The position numbers and the translations under genes were made by a program. Below, piece by piece: positions 1-6,916 of a DNA stretch of 12,369 bases; the stretch's first letter is position 1; every line of letters begins with the position of its first letter. Under the pieces are notes generated by a model. That model saw only the letters and a list, made by a program, of their open reading frames with translations, was not told the DNA's origin and searched no databases. The stretch comes from a virus (taxonomy: Duplodnaviria; Heunggongvirae; Uroviricota; Caudoviricetes): IMG/VR virus record IMGVR_UViG_2698536477_000001; one strand, written 5' to 3'.

Positions 1-245
1 GTGCAGTCTGTCTCGGAAAGAAAAACTTTATGTTCTTCGGCAGCGATCACGGCGGCGAGCGTGGAGCACTGTTGTACGGGCTGATCGGCACCTGCCGTCT
101 GAACGGTATCGATCCGGAAGCGTATCTGAGCCATATTCTGAGCGTACTGCCGGAATGGCCTTCCAACCGGGTTGACGAACTCCTGCCATGGAACGTAGTA
201 CTCACCAATAAATAAGCGTCAATACGGCACTCCGTTAACGCTTAC
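1..245 (+). mobile_element. IS66-family insertion sequence, right-hand end (transposase 3' end plus terminal inverted repeat); rest of element lies upstream of the window
   Basis: The reading frame open from the window edge to TAA 213-215 encodes ...KNFMFFGSDHGGERGALLYGLIGTCRLNGIDPEAYLSHILSVLPEWPSNRVDELLPWNV, which matches the conserved C-terminus of IS66-family TnpC transposases as I remember them. Thirty bp later the element ends at 239-245 (cgcttac, i.e. GTAAGCG read inward from outside), the terminal heptamer I associate with IS66-family inverted repeats. 216-245 is itself an imperfect palindrome. Confidence 0.7.
3..215 (+). CDS. IS66-family transposase TnpC, C-terminal fragment (5' end outside window; the ATG at 30 is internal, not the true start)
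   Basis: Frame is open from the first in-frame codon at position 3 with no upstream stop; C-terminal motif GSDxGGERxAxxYxLIGTCxLNGIDPEAYL...LLPWN is characteristic of the family. Confidence 0.7.
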   Translation, partial: AVCLGKKNFMFFGSDHGGERGALLYGLIGTCRLNGIDPEAYLSHILSVLPEWPSNRVDELLPWNVVLTNK

Positions 246-247
246 AT

Positions 248-1738
248 GTGATTGGCGTTTTTTCACCAGGATGGAAAGCGGCAAGGCTGCGTTCCCGTGC
301 GGTGATCCAGGCTTATGAGGCCGTAAAAACGACACGGACACACAAAGCCCGGCGGGAAAACCGAACTGCCGACCAGTTAAGCCAGTACGGGGCCGTGTCG
401 TTACGTGAGCAGGCCCGTTACCTTGATAACAACCACGATCTGGTTATTGGTGTATTTGACAAGCTGGAAGAACGGGTGGTGGGGAAAAACGGGATTATTG
501 TCGAGCCACATCCGGTATTACGCAATGGGGCCATTGCCCGTGATCTGGCAGCGGAGATACGCACCCGATGGAGTGAATGGTCTGTCAGTCCGGAAGTCAC
601 CGGGCAGTTTACCCGTCCGATGCTGGAACGTCTGATGCTGCGTACCTGGCTGCGCGATGGTGAGGTGTTTGCCCAGATGGTTTCCGGGCGCATAAACAGC
701 CTGACGCCTTCTGCCGGTGTTCATTTCTGGCTGGAGGCGCTCGAGCCGGACTTTATTCCCATGACCAGTGATGAGAGCAACAGGCTGAATCAGGGCGTGT
801 TTGTTGATGACTGGGGGCGTCCCGAAAAATATCTGGTGTATAAAAGCCGTCCCGTATCCGGGCGGCAGATGGAAACCAAAGAAGTGGATGCAGAGCGAAT
901 GCTGCATCTTAAATTTGTTCGCCGTCTGCACCAGATGCGCGGGACGTCTTTGTTGTCCGGTGTGCTGATCCGCCTCAGTGCCCTGAAAGAGTATGAAGAT
1001 TCTGAGCTGACTGCAGCAAGGATCGCCGCTGCTCTGGGGATGTACATCCGGAAAGGCGACGGGCAGAGCTATGAACCGGATGGTAATGGCAGCAAGGAGA
1101 ATGAACGCGAGCTTACCATTCAGCCAGGCATTATTTACGACGATCTGAAACCCGGCGAAGAAATCGGAATGGTGAAGTCGGATCGTCCCAATCCTAACCT
1201 TGAAACTTTTCGTAATGGTCAGTTGCGTGCCGTGGCGGCGGGCAGTCGTCTGAGTTTTTCCAGTACGGCACGCAACTATAACGGCACTTACAGCGCCCAG
1301 CGTCAGGAGCTGGTTGAATCCACTGATGGCTACCTGATCCTGCAGGACTGGTTTATTGGTGCCGTCACCCGCCCGATGTATCGTGCCTGGCTGAAACAGG
1401 CTGTGGCATCCGGTGTTATCAGGCTACCCCGCGATCTTGATCGTTCTTCACTGTATACCGCGGTGTATTCCGGACCGGTGATGCCGTGGATTGACCCTGT
1501 TAAGGAGGCTGAGGCCTGGAAAATTCAGATTCGTGGTGGAGCGGCGACAGAATCAGACTGGGTACGTGCAGGTGGTCGTAATCCGGATGATGTCAAACGT
1601 CGGCGCAAGGCCGAAATTGATGAAAACCGCAAGCTGGATCTGGTATTTGATACCGATCCGGCCAGTGATAAAGGAGGCAGCAGTGCCGCAACGAAACGAC
1701 AGGAGCCGCAGCACACCGACGACCAGTCCGAAGAATAA
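248..1738 (+). CDS. Phage portal protein (lambda gpB-type family), 496 aa as drawn from GTG 248; native start probably lost or displaced by the IS insertion
   Basis: Long + ORF at the head of a head-gene module. Segments such as LREQARYLDNNHDLVIGVF, the acidic Asp/Glu-rich C-terminus, and a size near 500 aa fit lambda-type portal proteins. The frame opens only at 239 (TAA 236-238 lies inside the IS end), with no in-frame ATG or Shine-Dalgarno near the 5' end. Confidence 0.8.
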   Translation: MIGVFSPGWKAARLRSRAVIQAYEAVKTTRTHKARRENRTADQLSQYGAVSLREQARYLDNNHDLVIGVFDKLEERVVGKNGIIVEPHPVLRNGAIARDLAAEIRTRWSEWSVSPEVTGQFTRPMLERLMLRTWLRDGEVFAQMVSGRINSLTPSAGVHFWLEALEPDFIPMTSDESNRLNQGVFVDDWGRPEKYLVYKSRPVSGRQMETKEVDAERMLHLKFVRRLHQMRGTSLLSGVLIRLSALKEYEDSELTAARIAAALGMYIRKGDGQSYEPDGNGSKENERELTIQPGIIYDDLKPGEEIGMVKSDRPNPNLETFRNGQLRAVAAGSRLSFSSTARNYNGTYSAQRQELVESTDGYLILQDWFIGAVTRPMYRAWLKQAVASGVIRLPRDLDRSSLYTAVYSGPVMPWIDPVKEAEAWKIQIRGGAATESDWVRAGGRNPDDVKRRRKAEIDENRKLDLVFDTDPASDKGGSSAATKRQEPQHTDDQSEE

Positions 1739-1751
1739 TTCCTGGTTCAGG

Positions 1752-3710
1752 ATGCAGGCAGGTCACCAGAGTGACGCGGATATTTATATTTATGACGAGA
1801 TTGGTTTCTGGGGTGTTACAGCGAAGCAGTTTATCAGTGATCTGAATGCACTGGGCGATATCACCCACATTAATCTCCATATTAATTCACCGGGTGGCGA
1901 TGTCTTTGAAGGCATCGCCATTTTTAATGCACTGAAAACACATGGTGCGTCCATTACCGTTTATGTCGACGGTGTGGCGGCGTCAATGGCGTCGGTCATT
2001 GCGATGGTGGGAAACCCGGTCATTATGCCGGAAAACTCCTTCATGATGATTCATAAACCATTTGGCTTTACGGGCGGTGATGCGGAGGACATGCGCACCT
2101 ATGCCGACCTGCTCGATAAAGTTGAGGCGGTTCTGTTACCCGCTTATGCACAGAAAACCGGGAAAACCACCGATGAAATTGCTGCCATGCTGGCGGATGA
2201 GACCTGGATGTCCGGTGCCGAATGTCTGGCACAGGGATTTGCTGATCAGGTGACACCAGCCGTTAAGGCAATGGCATGTATTCAGTCAAAACGTACAGAG
2301 GAATTTAAAAAGATGCCGGAATCCATTCGAAACATGATTACTCCGCCACGCAACAGTGCTCCACGCGTACAGGATGATGAACCTGCAGCCTCCCGGACGC
2401 CAGTGCAGGCAGCAGCACCCGTGGTGGATGAAAACAGTATCCGTGCGCAGGTACTGGCAGAGCAAAAAGCGCGTGTAAACGGTATTAATGATCTGTTTGC
2501 CATGTTTGGCGGGCGTTATCAGACGCTGCAGGCCCAGTGTCTTGCCGATCCTGAATGTTCGCTGGAGCAGGCCCGTGAAAAGCTGTTGAACGAGATGGGG
2601 CGCGAGTCCACGCCATCCAATAAAAATACCCCGGCTCATATTTATGCCGGTAACGGTAATTTTGTGGGGGACGGGATTCGCCAGGCGCTGATGGCGCGTG
2701 CCGGATTTGAAAAAACCGAACGTGATAATGTCTACAACGGGATGACCCTGCGTGAATATGCCCGTATGTCACTAACTGAACGGGGTATTGGGGTTTCCGG
2801 TTATAACCCGATGCAGATGGTCGGTGCGGCGTTCACACACAGTACGTCTGACTTCGGTAATATTCTGCTGGATGTTGCGAACAAAGCCATTCTGCAGGGC
2901 TGGGAAGATGCCCCTGAAACCTATGAACAGTGGACGCGGAAAGGTCAGTTGTCTGATTTTAAAATTGCCCATCGTGTGGGTATGGGGGGCTTCAGTGCTC
3001 TACGTCAGGTGCGTGAAGGGGCGGAATATAAATACGTCACCACCGGAGATAAACAGGCCACTATTGCACTGGCGACCTATGGCGAGCTGTTCAGTATCAC
3101 CCGTCAGGCCATTATCAATGATGATCTGAATATGCTGACCGATGTCCCGATGAAACTGGGCCGTGCGGCGAAATCCACTATTGCCGATCTGGTTTATGCC
3201 ATTCTGACGTCTAACCCGAAAATCTCCACAGATAATGTAAGTCTGTTCGATAAAGCGAAACATGCAAACGTACTGGAGAGCGCTGCAATGGACGTGGCAT
3301 CGCTGGATAAAGCCCGCCAGTTGATGCGCGTTCAGAAAGAGGGGGAGCGTCATCTGAATATTCGTCCTGCGTTCGTACTGGTACCGACGGCGATGGAGTC
3401 TGTTGCTAACCAGGTCATTCGCTCCTCAAGTGTCAAGGGGGCTGACATTAACGCCGGTATTATTAACCCGGTGAAAGATTTTGCGACCGTTATTGCAGAG
3501 CCTCGTCTTGATGATAACAGCCAGACCACCTTCTACCTGGCTGCGTCAAAAGGCTCCGATACGATTGAAGTGGCTTATCTCAACGGTGTGGATACGCCAT
3601 ATATTGATCAGATGGAGGGCTTCAGTGTGGATGGCGTGACAACGAAAGTGCGTATTGACGCCGGTGTCGCGCCAGTTGATCACCGCGGTCTGGTGAAATG
3701 TACGGCGTAA
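1752..3710 (+). CDS. Head maturation protease (ClpP/S49-like) fused to major capsid protein, 652 aa from ATG 1752; frame is open upstream to 1491
   Basis: N-terminal region DIYIYDEIGFWGVTAKQF...INSPGGDVFEGIAIFNALK...VYVDGVAASMASVIAMVG...MMIHKP has the ClpP-like serine protease fold signature (GG...S-M-A-S). A Pro/Ala-rich and coiled linker follows, then a C-terminal ~300 aa capsid-like domain. It sits directly after the portal, and I recall this fused arrangement from Gifsy-type and EHEC lambdoid prophages. ATG 1752 follows the portal stop at 1736-1738. Confidence 0.8.
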   Translation: MQAGHQSDADIYIYDEIGFWGVTAKQFISDLNALGDITHINLHINSPGGDVFEGIAIFNALKTHGASITVYVDGVAASMASVIAMVGNPVIMPENSFMMIHKPFGFTGGDAEDMRTYADLLDKVEAVLLPAYAQKTGKTTDEIAAMLADETWMSGAECLAQGFADQVTPAVKAMACIQSKRTEEFKKMPESIRNMITPPRNSAPRVQDDEPAASRTPVQAAAPVVDENSIRAQVLAEQKARVNGINDLFAMFGGRYQTLQAQCLADPECSLEQAREKLLNEMGRESTPSNKNTPAHIYAGNGNFVGDGIRQALMARAGFEKTERDNVYNGMTLREYARMSLTERGIGVSGYNPMQMVGAAFTHSTSDFGNILLDVANKAILQGWEDAPETYEQWTRKGQLSDFKIAHRVGMGGFSALRQVREGAEYKYVTTGDKQATIALATYGELFSITRQAIINDDLNMLTDVPMKLGRAAKSTIADLVYAILTSNPKISTDNVSLFDKAKHANVLESAAMDVASLDKARQLMRVQKEGERHLNIRPAFVLVPTAMESVANQVIRSSSVKGADINAGIINPVKDFATVIAEPRLDDNSQTTFYLAASKGSDTIEVAYLNGVDTPYIDQMEGFSVDGVTTKVRIDAGVAPVDHRGLVKCTA

Positions 3711-3734
3711 ACGTCGCAGACAACAACTCTGATG

Positions 3735-3753
3735 GCCCGTAAGGGCTTTTTTT
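3735..3753 (+). terminator. Candidate intrinsic terminator (partial) after the capsid gene
   Basis: GCCC-GTAA-GGGC stem-loop at 3735-3746 followed by seven T at 3747-3753, 25 nt after the capsid stop. The stem is short (4 bp), so read-through is likely. Confidence 0.45.
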
Positions 3754-3796
3754 GTACCTGAAATCAGCCCCTGAACGGGGCTGTGCGGAGACAGTT

Positions 3797-4120
3797 ATGG
3801 CAAAGAATTTTGTAGAAGAAGGAAAAACGGTGGCGATTGTTGCCAGTGCAGCCATCAGCAGCGGAGATCTGGTGCAGGTGGGCGATGTTTTTGCGGTGGC
3901 GCTGACCGATATTCCACAGGGTGAAACAGGCGACGGCATGACCGAAGGTGTGTTTATGCTGCCTAAGCTGAAAACGGATGACATGAAAACGGGTAAGAAG
4001 GTTTATCTGAAGTCCGGAAAAGTTCAGCTGACTAACAGCGGCTCTGATCCGCTGGTCGGGGTTGTCTGGGCAGATGCCGGAACCAGTGCAGAAGAAGTGC
4101 CGGTAAAACTCAATGTCTGA
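3797..4120 (+). CDS. DUF2190-family small head protein (predicted capsid decoration/cement-type protein), 107 aa
   Basis: ATG 3797 has a GGAG Shine-Dalgarno at 3787-3790. The motif pattern ...GDLVQVGDVFAVALTDIPQGETGDGMTEGVFMLPK...GKKVYLKSGKV... matches the conserved DUF2190 pattern usually encoded next to phage capsid genes. The ORF-track start at 3752 is an upstream in-frame extension without an RBS. Confidence 0.7.
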   Translation: MAKNFVEEGKTVAIVASAAISSGDLVQVGDVFAVALTDIPQGETGDGMTEGVFMLPKLKTDDMKTGKKVYLKSGKVQLTNSGSDPLVGVVWADAGTSAEEVPVKLNV

Positions 4121-4388
4121 TCCCTTTTCCCGGCTGGCAGCGCGTATGGATGCTATCACGGTCAGAAAGATGGGAAAGACAGCCTCGATTAATGATGTCG
4201 ATATGACTGTGATCCCGGGAGAAACACTGGCAGAGCTGAATGCTCTGTCCGGACCTGCGGTCTCTCTGGTGGTGTTTTCTTCGGGATACCGCCCACGGCG
4301 CGGGGATCGCGTTGTTTATGACGGACAACAATGGACGGTCACACGGCATGAACGTTTTAACGGTAAGCCAATGATCTTTATTGAGTAA
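4113..4388 (+). CDS. Small putative head-tail joining / head completion protein, 91 aa (positionally equivalent to lambda FII)
   Basis: ATG 4113 overlaps the preceding stop (ATGTCTGA), indicating translational coupling. Size and position between head and Z-U-V tail genes fit a connector protein. Function is assigned by position; family resemblance is weak. Confidence 0.5.
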   Translation: MSDPFSRLAARMDAITVRKMGKTASINDVDMTVIPGETLAELNALSGPAVSLVVFSSGYRPRRGDRVVYDGQQWTVTRHERFNGKPMIFIE

Positions 4389-4399
4389 AGAGGTGTGGG

Positions 4400-4978
4400 A
4401 TGAAGGGGCTTGAGAATGCCATCCGTAATCTGAACAGCCTTGATACCCGTATGGTGCCACAGGCCAGCGCATGGGCGATAAACCGTGTGGCACAGAAAGC
4501 GGTCTCGGTCGCCACCCGGCAGGTTGCCGGGAATACCGTTGCGGGAGATAACCAGGTGAAAGGGATCCCCCTGAAACTGGTACGTCAGCGTGTCCGGGTG
4601 TTTAAAGCCAGTCCGTCAGGAAAAATGACGGCCAGGATCCGCGTTAACCGGGGCAATCTGCCCGCTATTAAGCTGGGGACAGCCCGGGTCAGACTGGCCC
4701 GGCGTGGTGGAAAACTGCAGTACCGTGGCAGTGTGCTGAAGGTGGGTAAATATCTTTTCCGGGATGCGTTTATTCAGCAACTGGCGAATGGTCGCTGGCA
4801 TGTGATGCGGCGTATTGATGGCAAAAATCGTTACCCCATTGATGTGGTGAAAGTCCCGCTGTCCGGACCGCTGACACAGGCATTTGAAGATGCCCGCGAC
4901 CGCATTATTGCTGCGGAAATGCCGAAACAGCTGGGGTATGCACTGAAACAACAACTGAGGTTATGGCTGACCCGATGA
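4400..4978 (+). CDS. Z: Tail completion protein, lambda gpZ homologue, 192 aa
   Basis: AAGAGG Shine-Dalgarno about 6 nt upstream. The protein has the same length as lambda gpZ and shares blocks with it as remembered (KGLE.A..NL, AINRVA, IKLG.ARV, GAFIQQL.NGRWHVM.R..GKNRYPIDVVK.P, LGYAL..QLR). Confidence 0.9.
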   Translation: MKGLENAIRNLNSLDTRMVPQASAWAINRVAQKAVSVATRQVAGNTVAGDNQVKGIPLKLVRQRVRVFKASPSGKMTARIRVNRGNLPAIKLGTARVRLARRGGKLQYRGSVLKVGKYLFRDAFIQQLANGRWHVMRRIDGKNRYPIDVVKVPLSGPLTQAFEDARDRIIAAEMPKQLGYALKQQLRLWLTR

Positions 4979-5376
4979 ACCGACATACACAAATCCGCCA
5001 GGCCGTACTGGCACGCCTTCGGGAACAGTGTGGAGACAGCGCCACGTTTTTTGACGGGCTTCCGGCATTTATTGATGCGCAGGAACTGCCTGCCGTGGCG
5101 GTGTGGCTGAGTGATGCTCAGTACACCGGAAAAATGACGGATGAAGATGACTGGCAGGCTGTTCTGCATATTGCTGTCTTCATCCGGGCACAGGCACCGG
5201 ATTCAGAGCTGGATATGTGGATGGAGAGCACCATTTTCCCGGCCCTGAATGATATACCGGCACTTTCCGGACTCATCGACACCCTGATCCCTCTCGGTTT
5301 TAACTATCAACGTGATAATGAGATGGCCACCTGGGCGATGGCGGAAATCACGTACCAGATCACGTACACGAATTAA
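4963..5376 (+). CDS. U: Tail terminator protein, lambda gpU homologue (137 aa from ATG 4963; alternative start ATG 4975 gives 133 aa and an ATGA overlap with the Z stop)
   Basis: Shares blocks with lambda gpU as remembered: ATFFDG.PA, FPAVAV.L, AEYTG, WQA.LHI.VF, AQ.PDSELD.WMES, DIPALS.LI, TY.ITY. Confidence 0.9.
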   Translation: MADPMNRHTQIRQAVLARLREQCGDSATFFDGLPAFIDAQELPAVAVWLSDAQYTGKMTDEDDWQAVLHIAVFIRAQAPDSELDMWMESTIFPALNDIPALSGLIDTLIPLGFNYQRDNEMATWAMAEITYQITYTN

Positions 5377-5387
5377 AGGAGGTGGCA

Positions 5388-6131
5388 ATGACCACACCAA
5401 ATCCACTGGCAAAAACGAAAGGTGCGGGAACGACGTTCTGGATGTACACCGGCAAGGGCGATGCGTTTGCGAACCCTTTATCGGACACTGACTGGCTGCG
5501 TCTTGCGATGGTGAAGGATCTGCAACCTGGCGAAATGACCGCTGATGCAGAAGATGACACTTATCTCGATGATGAAGATGCAGACTGGAAAACGACAACC
5601 CAGGGGCAGAAATCCGTCGGTGATACTTCGGCGACGCTGGCCTGGCGTCCGGGTGACAGCGGGCAGAAAAAACTGGTTCAGTTGTTCGACTCCGGTGAAG
5701 TCTGCGCGTTTCGTATCAAATATCCCAACGGCACTGTTGATGTTTTCCGTGGCTGGCTGAGCTCACTGGGTAAAACCATTGCCTCAAAAGACGTGATGAC
5801 CCGCACAGTGAAAATCAGCGGTGTGGGGCGTCCGTATCTGGCAGAGGAAGGCACTGAAACAGTGAGCGTTACCGGGCTGACGGTGGCACCGGCATCTGCC
5901 AGTGTAAAAGTGGGAGCAACCACCACGCTGACCTTTACAGTAAAACCTGACGGAGCCAGTGACAAAGCGATCAGTGTGCATTCGACAGATCCACAGACTG
6001 CCACGGTGACCCTGAACGGGCTTGTGGCCACGGTGAAAGGCGTGAAGCAGGGCAGTGTCAGCATTGTGGGCATGACTTCTGACGGCGATTTTGTGGCAGT
6101 GGCTGCGGTGGCTGTCAGCGCCGCAGGTTAA
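5388..6131 (+). CDS. V: Major tail protein, lambda gpV homologue with C-terminal Ig-like (Big_2-type) domain, 247 aa
   Basis: AAGGAGGTG Shine-Dalgarno at 5377-5385. Shares NP...KGAGTT.W.Y.G.GD.?ANPLSD.DW.RLA.VKDL.PGE.TA...DD.YLDDEDADW..T.QGQKS.GDTS.TLAW.PG, PNGTVDVFRGW.SS.GK and the Thr/Val/Ser-rich C-terminal beta-domain with lambda gpV as remembered. Confidence 0.92.
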   Translation: MTTPNPLAKTKGAGTTFWMYTGKGDAFANPLSDTDWLRLAMVKDLQPGEMTADAEDDTYLDDEDADWKTTTQGQKSVGDTSATLAWRPGDSGQKKLVQLFDSGEVCAFRIKYPNGTVDVFRGWLSSLGKTIASKDVMTRTVKISGVGRPYLAEEGTETVSVTGLTVAPASASVKVGATTTLTFTVKPDGASDKAISVHSTDPQTATVTLNGLVATVKGVKQGSVSIVGMTSDGDFVAVAAVAVSAAG

Positions 6132-6152
6132 CAGGACGATACTCATCATTTG

Positions 6153-6175
6153 CCCCGGTTATCCGGGGCTTTTTT
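6153..6175 (+). terminator. Candidate intrinsic terminator downstream of the major tail gene
   Basis: CCCCGG-TTAT-CCGGGG perfect 6-bp GC stem at 6153-6168, followed by C and TTTTTT at 6170-6175, 22 nt after the V stop. Confidence 0.6.
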
Positions 6176-6188
6176 GCAGGTGGAGAAC

Positions 6189-6578
6189 ATGATGTTTCTG
6201 AAACAGGGCACGTTTAATTATGAAAAGCAGTCCGTGGTGCTCAGTGAGCTGTCCGGGCTGCAGAGAATTGAATATCTGGCGTTTGTTCAGCAGCGAACGG
6301 CAAAGTTTGATGCCGAAGAGGGAGAACTGCCGGAGGCTGAACGACAGATTGCTTTTCTGCGGATGGGGATGGATATCAATGCCTGGCTGGTTTCCCGCTC
6401 ACTGTGGAATGCGGAACAGTCTCAGGATGTTGAGACGCTTTGCGCATCCGTTATTACAACATGGTCGTATGATGCCCTGGGAGCGGGGGCGGAGATGGTT
6501 CTGTCGCTGAGCGGTATGGGAGTCATTGAGAATGCCGGGGATTTGGAGCATGAGGTGCTGACGCCGGAAAAGTCCTGA
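6189..6578 (+). CDS. G: Tail assembly chaperone, lambda gpG homologue (129 aa from ATG 6189; ATG 6192 equally possible)
   Basis: GGAG Shine-Dalgarno at 6183-6186. Shares MFLK...V.LSELS.LQRIE.LA..., LW and EQEVLT-type elements with lambda gpG as remembered. The ORF-track start at 6150 lies inside the terminator hairpin and is unlikely. Confidence 0.88.
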   Translation: MMFLKQGTFNYEKQSVVLSELSGLQRIEYLAFVQQRTAKFDAEEGELPEAERQIAFLRMGMDINAWLVSRSLWNAEQSQDVETLCASVITTWSYDALGAGAEMVLSLSGMGVIENAGDLEHEVLTPEKS

Positions 6579-6916
6579 CGCGGGAAATGCAGTTTGTCAT
6601 GCGGCTTGCCCGGGAGTTCCGGCGGGCAGACTGGCGGCGGATGCTGTCGGAAATGTCGGCCACTGAGCTTGGTGAGTGGGGCGATTATTTCCGGATGCAG
6701 AGCTTCAGTGATGTGTGGATGGATGCGCAGTTTGCCTCGCTGAAGGCATTGATCGTGAGAATGGTGTCCGGTAGCAGTGATGCTGCGGTGGCTGATTTCA
6801 GCCTTTTACCGGAAGAGAACGGGATACCGGAGCGAACGGACGAAGAACTGATGCATCTTGGGGAAGGTATTTCCGGAGGTGTGCGTTATGGACCAGATAG
6901 CCAACCTGGTCATTGA
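6554..6916 (+). CDS. T: T segment of the tail assembly chaperone gpGT, expressed only as a -1 frameshift extension of G (the ATG at 6587 is probably not an independent start)
   Basis: An ORF in the -1 frame begins just before the G stop and ends overlapping the start of the tape measure gene, the conserved lambda G/G-T architecture. No Shine-Dalgarno precedes ATG 6587. Confidence 0.8.
   Translation, partial: GADAGKVLTREMQFVMRLAREFRRADWRRMLSEMSATELGEWGDYFRMQSFSDVWMDAQFASLKALIVRMVSGSSDAAVADFSLLPEENGIPERTDEELMHLGEGISGGVRYGPDSQPGH
6566..6572 (+). other. Candidate -1 programmed ribosomal frameshift site linking G to T (heptamer G GAA AAG)
   Basis: The T frame is -1 relative to G and is open only from 6554 (TGA 6551-6553), so the shift must occur between 6554 and the G stop at 6576-6578. 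The only slippery-looking sequence in that interval is ccGGAAAAGtcc. Confidence 0.6.

What the first reader, a model, noticed from the sequence alone, without database searches (positions are those of the whole stretch)
1..320. IS66-family element ends 2 bp before the portal ORF; portal has no ATG start or RBS
The IS terminus (GTAAGCG heptamer, reverse complement at 239-245) sits directly against the portal reading frame, which opens only at 239 because of a TAA inside the IS end. The first usable start is GTG 248, with no Shine-Dalgarno and no in-frame ATG for more than 50 codons. This suggests the IS inserted into the terminase-portal junction and removed the native portal start and its translational coupling. 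The terminase gene expected upstream is not in the window and may be split or displaced. The prophage is therefore probably packaging-defective, or the portal depends on read-through from the IS.
Basis: partly seen in the sequence, partly recalled or inferred. Interest (0 to 1): 0.55.

Follow-up and report, generated by a model that had tools for sequence, protein, structure and literature searches.

The report
IS66 insertion in prophage portal gene
A common E. coli jumping gene of the IS66 family has landed in the first few codons of the portal gene of a lambda-like prophage, cutting off its start signal; this is an ordinary way for prophages to become disabled.

Summary
Window 1-245 is base-for-base identical to the right end of a 2,532-bp IS66-family element (tnpA-tnpB-tnpC, GTAAGCG termini, 8-bp target duplications). 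Window 246-12369 is base-for-base identical to the late region of a lambdoid prophage that sits at the Qin site (rspB/ydfJ) in many E. coli.

In intact copies the portal (502 aa) starts at an ATG 18 nt upstream of GTG 248. That ATG has a GAGG Shine-Dalgarno and a TGATG overlap with a 70-aa ORF in the position of lambda W. The overlap is not with the terminase gene.

The IS therefore lies inside the portal gene, at codons 6-8, not at a terminase-portal junction. Only 16 nt are missing from this side, and 246-253 (ATGTGATT) is the expected target duplication. GTG 248 has no Shine-Dalgarno, and the next in-frame ATG is 124 codons downstream.

The window is a complete draft-assembly contig that breaks inside the IS repeat. 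This explains why the terminase gene is absent, and nothing indicates it is damaged. The left junction could not be retrieved.

The junction is absent from 5,426 complete E. coli genomes, while 1,862 of them carry the intact site. The most likely result is a recent portal knock-out or strong knock-down. This is ordinary biology and of low interest.

The parts
1..245 (+). Right-hand 245 bp of an IS66-family insertion sequence. The full element is 2,532 bp in identical copies elsewhere. The contig starts inside it.
   Evidence: 245/245 identity to IS copies in 14 E. coli records. Element boundaries were defined from L002, L003 and L009.
3..215 (+). 3' end of tnpC, the IS66-family DDE transposase. 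The last 70 codons are present, with stop TAA at 213-215.
   Evidence: Translation; PF13817 DDE_Tnp_IS66_C, E=5.6e-17; annotated as tnpC in L002 and L003.
222..245 (-). Right terminal inverted repeat. Read on the minus strand it is GTAAGCGTTAACGGAGTGCCGTAT.
   Evidence: It matches the left end GTAAGCGTAAACTGACCGCCGTAT at 20 of 24 positions.
236..238 (+). TAA inside the IS end, in the portal reading frame. It blocks any in-frame read-in from the IS.
   Evidence: Sequence; the frame opens at 239.
246..253 (+). ATGTGATT, which is portal nt 17-24. This is the expected right-hand copy of the 8-bp target-site duplication. It also creates an out-of-frame ATG-TGA at 246-251.
   Evidence: Homology to the intact prophage starts at 246. 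This IS makes 8-bp duplications at three other sites. The left copy was not observable.
248..1738 (+). 5'-truncated lambda-family portal ORF. It corresponds to codons 7-502 of the intact 502-aa protein WP_000985953.1. Its only nearby start is GTG 248, which has no Shine-Dalgarno.
   Evidence: PF05136 covers residues 35-372 of the intact protein.
1683..12369 (+). The rest of the late operon. It includes the ClpP-like protease/major capsid fusion, head-tail genes, tail tube, G/T chaperones, tape measure, M, L, K, I and the first 25 nt of J. All ORFs are open.
   Evidence: Gene calls with Pfam families. Window 246-12369 is 100% identical to JNEC-KY172.

Best explanation
A 2.5-kb IS66-family element, related to ISEc23, transposed into the 5' end of the portal gene of a lambdoid prophage that in other E. 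coli occupies the Qin site between rspB and ydfJ. The IS lies in the same orientation as the late operon. Its right end abuts portal nucleotide 17. The native ATG, the GAGG Shine-Dalgarno and the TGATG stop-start overlap with the upstream 70-aa ORF (in the position of lambda W) are now separated from the portal body by the IS. They presumably sit about 2.5 kb upstream, next to a second copy of ATGTGATT. An in-frame TAA in the IS end prevents any fusion protein. The only nearby start, GTG 248, has no ribosome-binding site. The portal is therefore expected to be made at very low level or not at all, which would block prohead assembly and DNA packaging unless a co-resident prophage supplies a compatible portal. 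The event is recent, because the 12,124 bp downstream are identical to intact prophages. Shown here: the IS identity, the exact breakpoint, the missing 16 nt, the loss of the start signals and the intactness of downstream genes. Inferred: that the whole IS and the left junction exist upstream, and that portal expression is lost.
For: IS end: 245/245 identity. Full copies are 2,532 bp with tnpA-tnpB-tnpC, GTAAGCG-type inverted repeats and 8-bp duplications CAAAAAAA, CCTGTATG and CAGACATT. Breakpoint: matches to prophages start at 246 in all top hits. The intact sequence reads ATGGCAATTCTTGATG|ATGTGATTGGC, and window 246-12369 equals L007 18001-30124 exactly. Native start: ATG with GAGG 5 nt upstream and a TGATG overlap with the upstream ORF; anti-SD duplex -7.1 against +1.2 kcal/mol for GTG 248. 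The intact site is present in 1,862 of 5,426 complete genomes, and the IS-portal junction in none. No promoter-like site in 1-600 on either strand. The break coincides to the base with the IS terminus and shows no microhomology, as expected for transposition. Prophage context is given. The window is a whole contig that starts in the repeat. IS-disrupted morphogenesis and packaging genes in E. coli prophages, and their complementation by co-resident prophages, are documented (PMC2669165).
Against: The left end of the IS and the duplicated ATGTGATT were not seen, because the contig ends 245 bp into the IS. Two scans for the right and left junction sequences in species-representative genomes found nothing. 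A simple insertion therefore cannot be distinguished from an IS-mediated deletion or inversion. Loss of portal expression is inferred and not measured. The six missing residues lie outside the conserved portal domain, which starts at residue 35, so a protein started at GTG 248 might work if it were translated.
Confidence: 0.85

Rival explanations
1. The junction is the product of an IS-mediated rearrangement, either an adjacent deletion or an inversion or recombination between two IS66 copies. In that case the DNA on the other side of the IS is not the W-like ORF and terminase gene, and the prophage has lost or displaced its packaging genes.
For: The left junction is unobserved. In JNEC-KY172, whose prophage is identical over the 12,124 bp, another IS66 copy sits about 15 kb upstream on the opposite strand, and the early region has been replaced by IS1414 and IS66 sequences. 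This shows that IS-driven remodelling occurs at this locus. Genomes carrying this IS hold several copies.
Against: The break lies exactly at the IS terminus, as a fresh insertion predicts. Three other copies of this IS are simple insertions with 8-bp duplications. No positive evidence for a rearrangement was found.
Confidence: 0.1
2. The portal is still made in sufficient amounts. Late transcription antiterminated by the prophage Q protein, or tnpC transcription, reads through the IS. Ribosomes that terminate at the tnpC stop (213-215) re-initiate 33 nt downstream at GTG 248. This yields a portal lacking six N-terminal residues that still assembles, so the prophage stays functional.
For: No terminator-like site on the + strand between the tnpC stop and GTG 248. 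The IS lies in the same orientation as the late operon. The missing residues lie outside PF05136, which starts at residue 35. Only 12 portal subunits are needed per capsid (general knowledge). An antiterminator gene (ydfT) is present in intact relatives.
Against: GTG 248 has no SD (+1.2 kcal/mol), a weak start codon and a 33-nt gap from the tnpC stop. No promoter-like site was found. None of 1,862 genomes with this portal uses such an arrangement.
Confidence: 0.12
3. The IS-portal join is an assembly chimera in the draft genome and does not exist in the cell.
For: The window is a short-read draft contig that starts in a multicopy repeat. The junction is found in no other genome searched.
Against: A chimera would be expected at a shared k-mer. 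Here there is no shared sequence at the join, and the break falls exactly on the last base of the IS as defined from three independent copies. The same contig is recorded in two samples.
Confidence: 0.02

Closest known systems
IS66-family insertion sequences of E. coli, ISEc23-like
   Same: The transposase C-terminus carries the IS66 C-terminal domain. The terminal inverted repeat begins GTAAGCG. Identical copies elsewhere have tnpA-tnpB-tnpC, a length of 2,532 bp and 8-bp target duplications. The classic family architecture and GTAAGCG-type repeats are described in PMC12888890.
   Different: Over its full length the variant is only 93% identical to a copy that NCBI's pipeline labels ISEc23 family. 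Only the last 245 bp of this particular copy are visible.
IS-disrupted morphogenesis and packaging genes in E. coli lambdoid prophages, such as the IS-disrupted nu1 of Sakai prophage Sp4 (PMC2669165)
   Same: An IS interrupts a single essential late gene of an otherwise intact-looking lambdoid prophage. A defect is predicted that co-resident prophages may complement.
   Different: The gene (portal), the IS family and the prophage (Qin site) all differ. Here almost the whole coding sequence survives and only the initiation signals are removed.
Qin (Kim) cryptic prophage of E. coli K-12 and its full-length relatives at rspB/ydfJ
   Same: Identical late-gene DNA lies in prophages flanked by hokD, rem, ydfU, ydfT, cspB, cspF, essD, rrrQ, pinQ, tfaQ and ydfJ.
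   Different: From my own knowledge, not tested here, K-12 Qin lacks these head and tail genes. The chromosomal position in the source strain was not observable.
Phage lambda W-B gene junction
   Same: The gene order is the same: terminase large subunit, a small ORF of about 70 aa, then a lambda-family portal (PF05136), with stop-start overlap.
   Different: The 70-aa ORF has no Pfam match. The portal matches solved lambda-type portals only weakly by sequence (E=1e-4 to 2e-6, C-terminal part only).

Membership tests
IS66 family insertion sequence | Terminal inverted repeats of about 20-30 bp beginning GTAAGCG | tested here: met
   Window 222-245 is the reverse complement of GTAAGCGTTAACGGAGTGCCGTAT. 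It matches the left end of identical full copies at 20 of 24 positions.
IS66 family insertion sequence | DDE transposase (TnpC) with the IS66 C-terminal domain | tested here: met
   Window 3-215 hits PF13817 at E=5.6e-17, 62 bits against a cut-off of 30. Only the last 70 codons are in the window.
IS66 family insertion sequence | Three-gene organisation tnpA-tnpB-tnpC | not testable with these tools
   The contig starts 245 bp from the IS end. Copies identical over those 245 bp have all three genes.
IS66 family insertion sequence | 8-bp target-site duplication flanking the element | not testable with these tools
   The left junction lies outside the contig, and scans for it found nothing. Three other copies have 8-bp duplications. 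The predicted duplication here is ATGTGATT.
Lambda-family phage portal (PF05136) | Significant full-length match to the family profile | tested here: met
   E=6.3e-82, profile positions 3-354 of 354, residues 35-372 of the intact protein. The window ORF is recorded with PF05136.
Lambda-family phage portal (PF05136) | Complete gene with its own start codon and ribosome-binding site | tested here: not met
   The first 16 nt, the ATG and the GAGG are replaced by the IS end.
Qin-site lambdoid prophage of E. coli | Late-region DNA identical to prophages integrated between rspB and ydfJ | tested here: met
   12,124/12,124 identity to JNEC-KY172. Flanking genes are shown. The integration site in the source strain itself was not visible.

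The most novel reading that the evidence does not exclude
The IS sits in the sense orientation inside a late operon that is antiterminated by the prophage Q protein. Prophage induction would then drive strong transcription of tnpA-tnpB-tnpC, coupling IS66 transposition to phage induction. At the same time, termination-reinitiation from the tnpC stop at GTG 248 would supply just enough of a six-residue-shorter portal to keep the phage viable. The IS would then be a tolerated passenger of a functional phage rather than a knock-out.
Probability: 0.05. Interest if true: 0.35.

Novelty: already known. Interest (0 to 1): 0.08.

Why it matters
It matters mainly for annotation. The 496-aa portal called from GTG 248 should be flagged as a 5'-truncated, IS-disrupted gene and not as an intact portal. 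The missing terminase gene is an assembly-break artefact and not biology. Biologically it is one more recent example of prophage inactivation by an insertion sequence. This particular insertion was not found in any of 5,426 complete E. coli genomes, so it could serve as a strain or lineage marker.

Tried and rejected
1. I looked for the same junction elsewhere to see the upstream side. None was found in 5,426 complete E. coli genomes. Neither the right junction nor the predicted left junction was found in GTDB species representatives.

2. I looked up the 496-aa ORF by exact sequence. This identified the source contig, which equals the window, plus two other contigs (L005, L006). Reading them showed a 24-bp deletion that removes the SD and ATG, and a 2-bp deletion in codons 4-5. 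They are lesions or low-coverage errors, not natural GTG starts, so I rejected them as a refutation.

3. The GTAAGCG heptamer by itself is not significant. The case rests on the 245-bp identity.

4. The promoter scan of 1-600 found nothing, so an outward IS promoter is not supported.

5. A literature search for the assembly accession found nothing.

6. I did not try to retrieve the left-hand contig through the terminase or W-like proteins. These exact proteins occur in well over a thousand genomes, and the look-up returns at most 10 places.

Full report
**What is in the sequence**

Window 1-245 ends in ...CCGTTAACGCTTAC. Bases 3-215 translate to the last 70 residues of a protein, ending in TAA at 213-215. 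That peptide matches Pfam PF13817, the IS66 C-terminal element, at E=5.6e-17.

The whole 245 bp is 100% identical to sequences in 14 complete E. coli records annotated as tnpC of an IS66-family element. It is 98% identical to many copies that NCBI's pipeline labels ISEc23 family. I fetched two of the identical copies (L002, L003) and one ISEc23-labelled copy (L009) and compared their flanks. The element is 2,532 bp and carries tnpA, tnpB and tnpC. It begins GTAAGCGTAAACTGACCGCCGTAT and ends with the reverse complement of GTAAGCGTTAACGGAGTGCCGTAT, which match at 20 of 24 positions. It is flanked by 8-bp direct duplications: CAAAAAAA, CCTGTATG and CAGACATT.

All three copies end at exactly the base that corresponds to window 245. 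The GTAAGCG heptamer on its own would not be significant, with two matches in the window and 53 of 200 shuffles doing as well. The long identity settles the matter.

**The other side of the junction**

From 246 onward the window matches lambdoid prophages in about 1,800-1,980 complete E. coli genomes, and all top-scoring alignments start at 246. Window 246-12369 is identical at every base to strain JNEC-KY172.

In such intact prophages the gene order is:
- DUF1441 protein
- terminase large subunit
- a 70-aa hypothetical ORF
- portal (502 aa, WP_000985953.1)
- ClpP-like protease/major capsid fusion
- head-tail and tail genes

The intact sequence around the site reads ...GGCGAGGTTCTGATGGCAATTCTTGATG|ATGTGATTGGCG.... 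The portal starts at an ATG that overlaps the TGA of the 70-aa ORF. A GAGG lies five bases upstream, and the protein begins MAILDDVIGVF.

The window joins the IS end to the second base of codon 6. Sixteen nucleotides of the portal gene are absent from this side, and GTG 248 is codon 7. Because this IS makes 8-bp duplications, 246-253 (ATGTGATT) should be the right-hand copy of the target. The predicted left side is ...ATGGCAATTCTTGATGATGTGATT followed by GTAAGCG..., which would encode only a 12-residue peptide.

The following are correct:
- The IS end is at 245, two bases before GTG 248.
- The in-frame TAA is at 236-238.
- There is no Shine-Dalgarno. Best anti-SD pairing is +1.2 kcal/mol, against -7.1 for the native start and -5 to -13 for most other genes in the window.
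- There is no nearby in-frame ATG. The next is at 620, 124 codons downstream.

The first refutation criterion, intact homologues that start at the GTG, is not met. A 201-bp probe centred on the site finds the intact arrangement in 1,862 of 5,426 complete genomes. No genome has the IS-portal junction.

Two contigs initially seemed to have a 496-aa portal called from the same GTG. Both turned out to carry small deletions that destroy the native start, possibly sequencing errors at low coverage.

**Where the interpretation needs correcting**

- The insertion is inside the portal coding sequence, not in an intergenic terminase-portal junction.
- The gene translationally coupled to the portal is the 70-aa ORF in the position of lambda W, not the terminase gene.
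- The absence of the terminase gene has a simple cause. The window is the entire contig LPUM01000073.1 (12,369 bp) of draft assembly GCA_001609295.1. It starts inside the multicopy IS and ends 25 nt into the J gene. Both are typical repeat-induced assembly breaks.
- For the same reason, the second refutation criterion (left inverted repeat and duplication) cannot be tested with the window. My two scans of species-representative genomes for either junction returned nothing.

**Context**

In WP7-S17-ESBL-01 the same late genes belong to a full-length lambdoid prophage between rspB and ydfJ, the Qin site. It has integrase, excisionase, exonuclease, dicB, CI/Cro-like regulators, an antiterminator (ydfT) and lysis genes.

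In JNEC-KY172 the early region of that prophage has been replaced by IS1414 and a truncated IS66 copy. IS-driven erosion of this prophage therefore occurs independently in other strains.

All downstream ORFs in the window are open and identical to those of intact relatives. The insertion is therefore recent.

**Mechanism and consequences (inferred)**

The portal body has lost its ATG, its SD and its coupling. An in-frame stop in the IS end excludes a fusion protein. No promoter-like site is detectable in 1-600. The most likely outcome is little or no portal, and hence no proheads competent for packaging from this prophage alone.

Two caveats keep this from being certain:
- There is no terminator-like site on the + strand between the tnpC stop and GTG 248, and the IS is co-oriented with the late operon. 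Read-through transcription with weak re-initiation is therefore conceivable.
- The six lost residues lie outside the conserved portal domain, which begins at residue 35.

Other lambdoid prophages in the same cell could also supply portal in trans. This has been shown for defective prophages of E. coli O157 Sakai, where for example nu1 of Sp4 is IS-disrupted yet Sp4 DNA is still packaged (PMC2669165).

**Comparison with what is known, and verdict**

This is a textbook case of an IS66-family element (three ORFs, GTAAGCG-type inverted repeats; PMC12888890) inactivating a prophage late gene. The only unusual detail is how little of the gene is removed. The particular insertion appears unique among the genomes searched. 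It is not a new kind of feature, and the interest is low.

Noticed in passing
window 12345-12369 (L007 30100-30124): The contig ends 25 nt into the tail-tip gene J. Both contig ends therefore fall in sequences repeated in the genome (the IS66 element and a lambdoid J gene), which are typical short-read assembly breaks.
   Followed up: partly
window 6192-6916, especially 6564-6578: The tail assembly chaperone pair G (6192-6578) and T (6587-6916) has T in the -1 frame relative to G, as in lambda G/GT. The only candidate slip site before the G stop is CCG GAA AAG TCC TGA (A AAG), not lambda's canonical G GGA AAG.
   Followed up: no
L005 385-400 and L006 349-362: Two unrelated public contigs, one an ENA metagenome at about 2x coverage and one from Logan, carry small deletions at the very 5' end of the same portal gene. 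One is a 24-bp deletion that removes the SD and ATG, and the other is a 2-bp deletion in codons 4-5. Gene callers then start at the same GTG. These may be sequencing errors or independent lesions.
   Followed up: partly
window 246-251: The junction creates an out-of-frame minimal ORF, ATG-TGA, that overlaps GTG 248. It has no SD upstream and is probably meaningless.
   Followed up: no
L007 1-5206 compared with L008 12183-22786: In JNEC-KY172 the integrase-to-replication region of the otherwise identical prophage is replaced by IS1414 and a truncated IS66 copy on the opposite strand. WP7-S17-ESBL-01 keeps a full-length prophage between rspB and ydfJ. A DUF4209 gene sits next to hokD in both.
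   Followed up: partly
hit H1 (NZ_CP200247.1, 677384-680199): In strain Yu5 the same portal gene is split by a different insertion sequence, an IS3-like ISEc31. This is an independent IS hit in this gene.
   Followed up: no
window 1683-1738: The portal ORF and the ClpP-like protease/major capsid fusion gene overlap by 56 nt. The fusion gene starts at GTG 1683 and has a strong SD (AAGGAGG, -11.6 kcal/mol).
   Followed up: no
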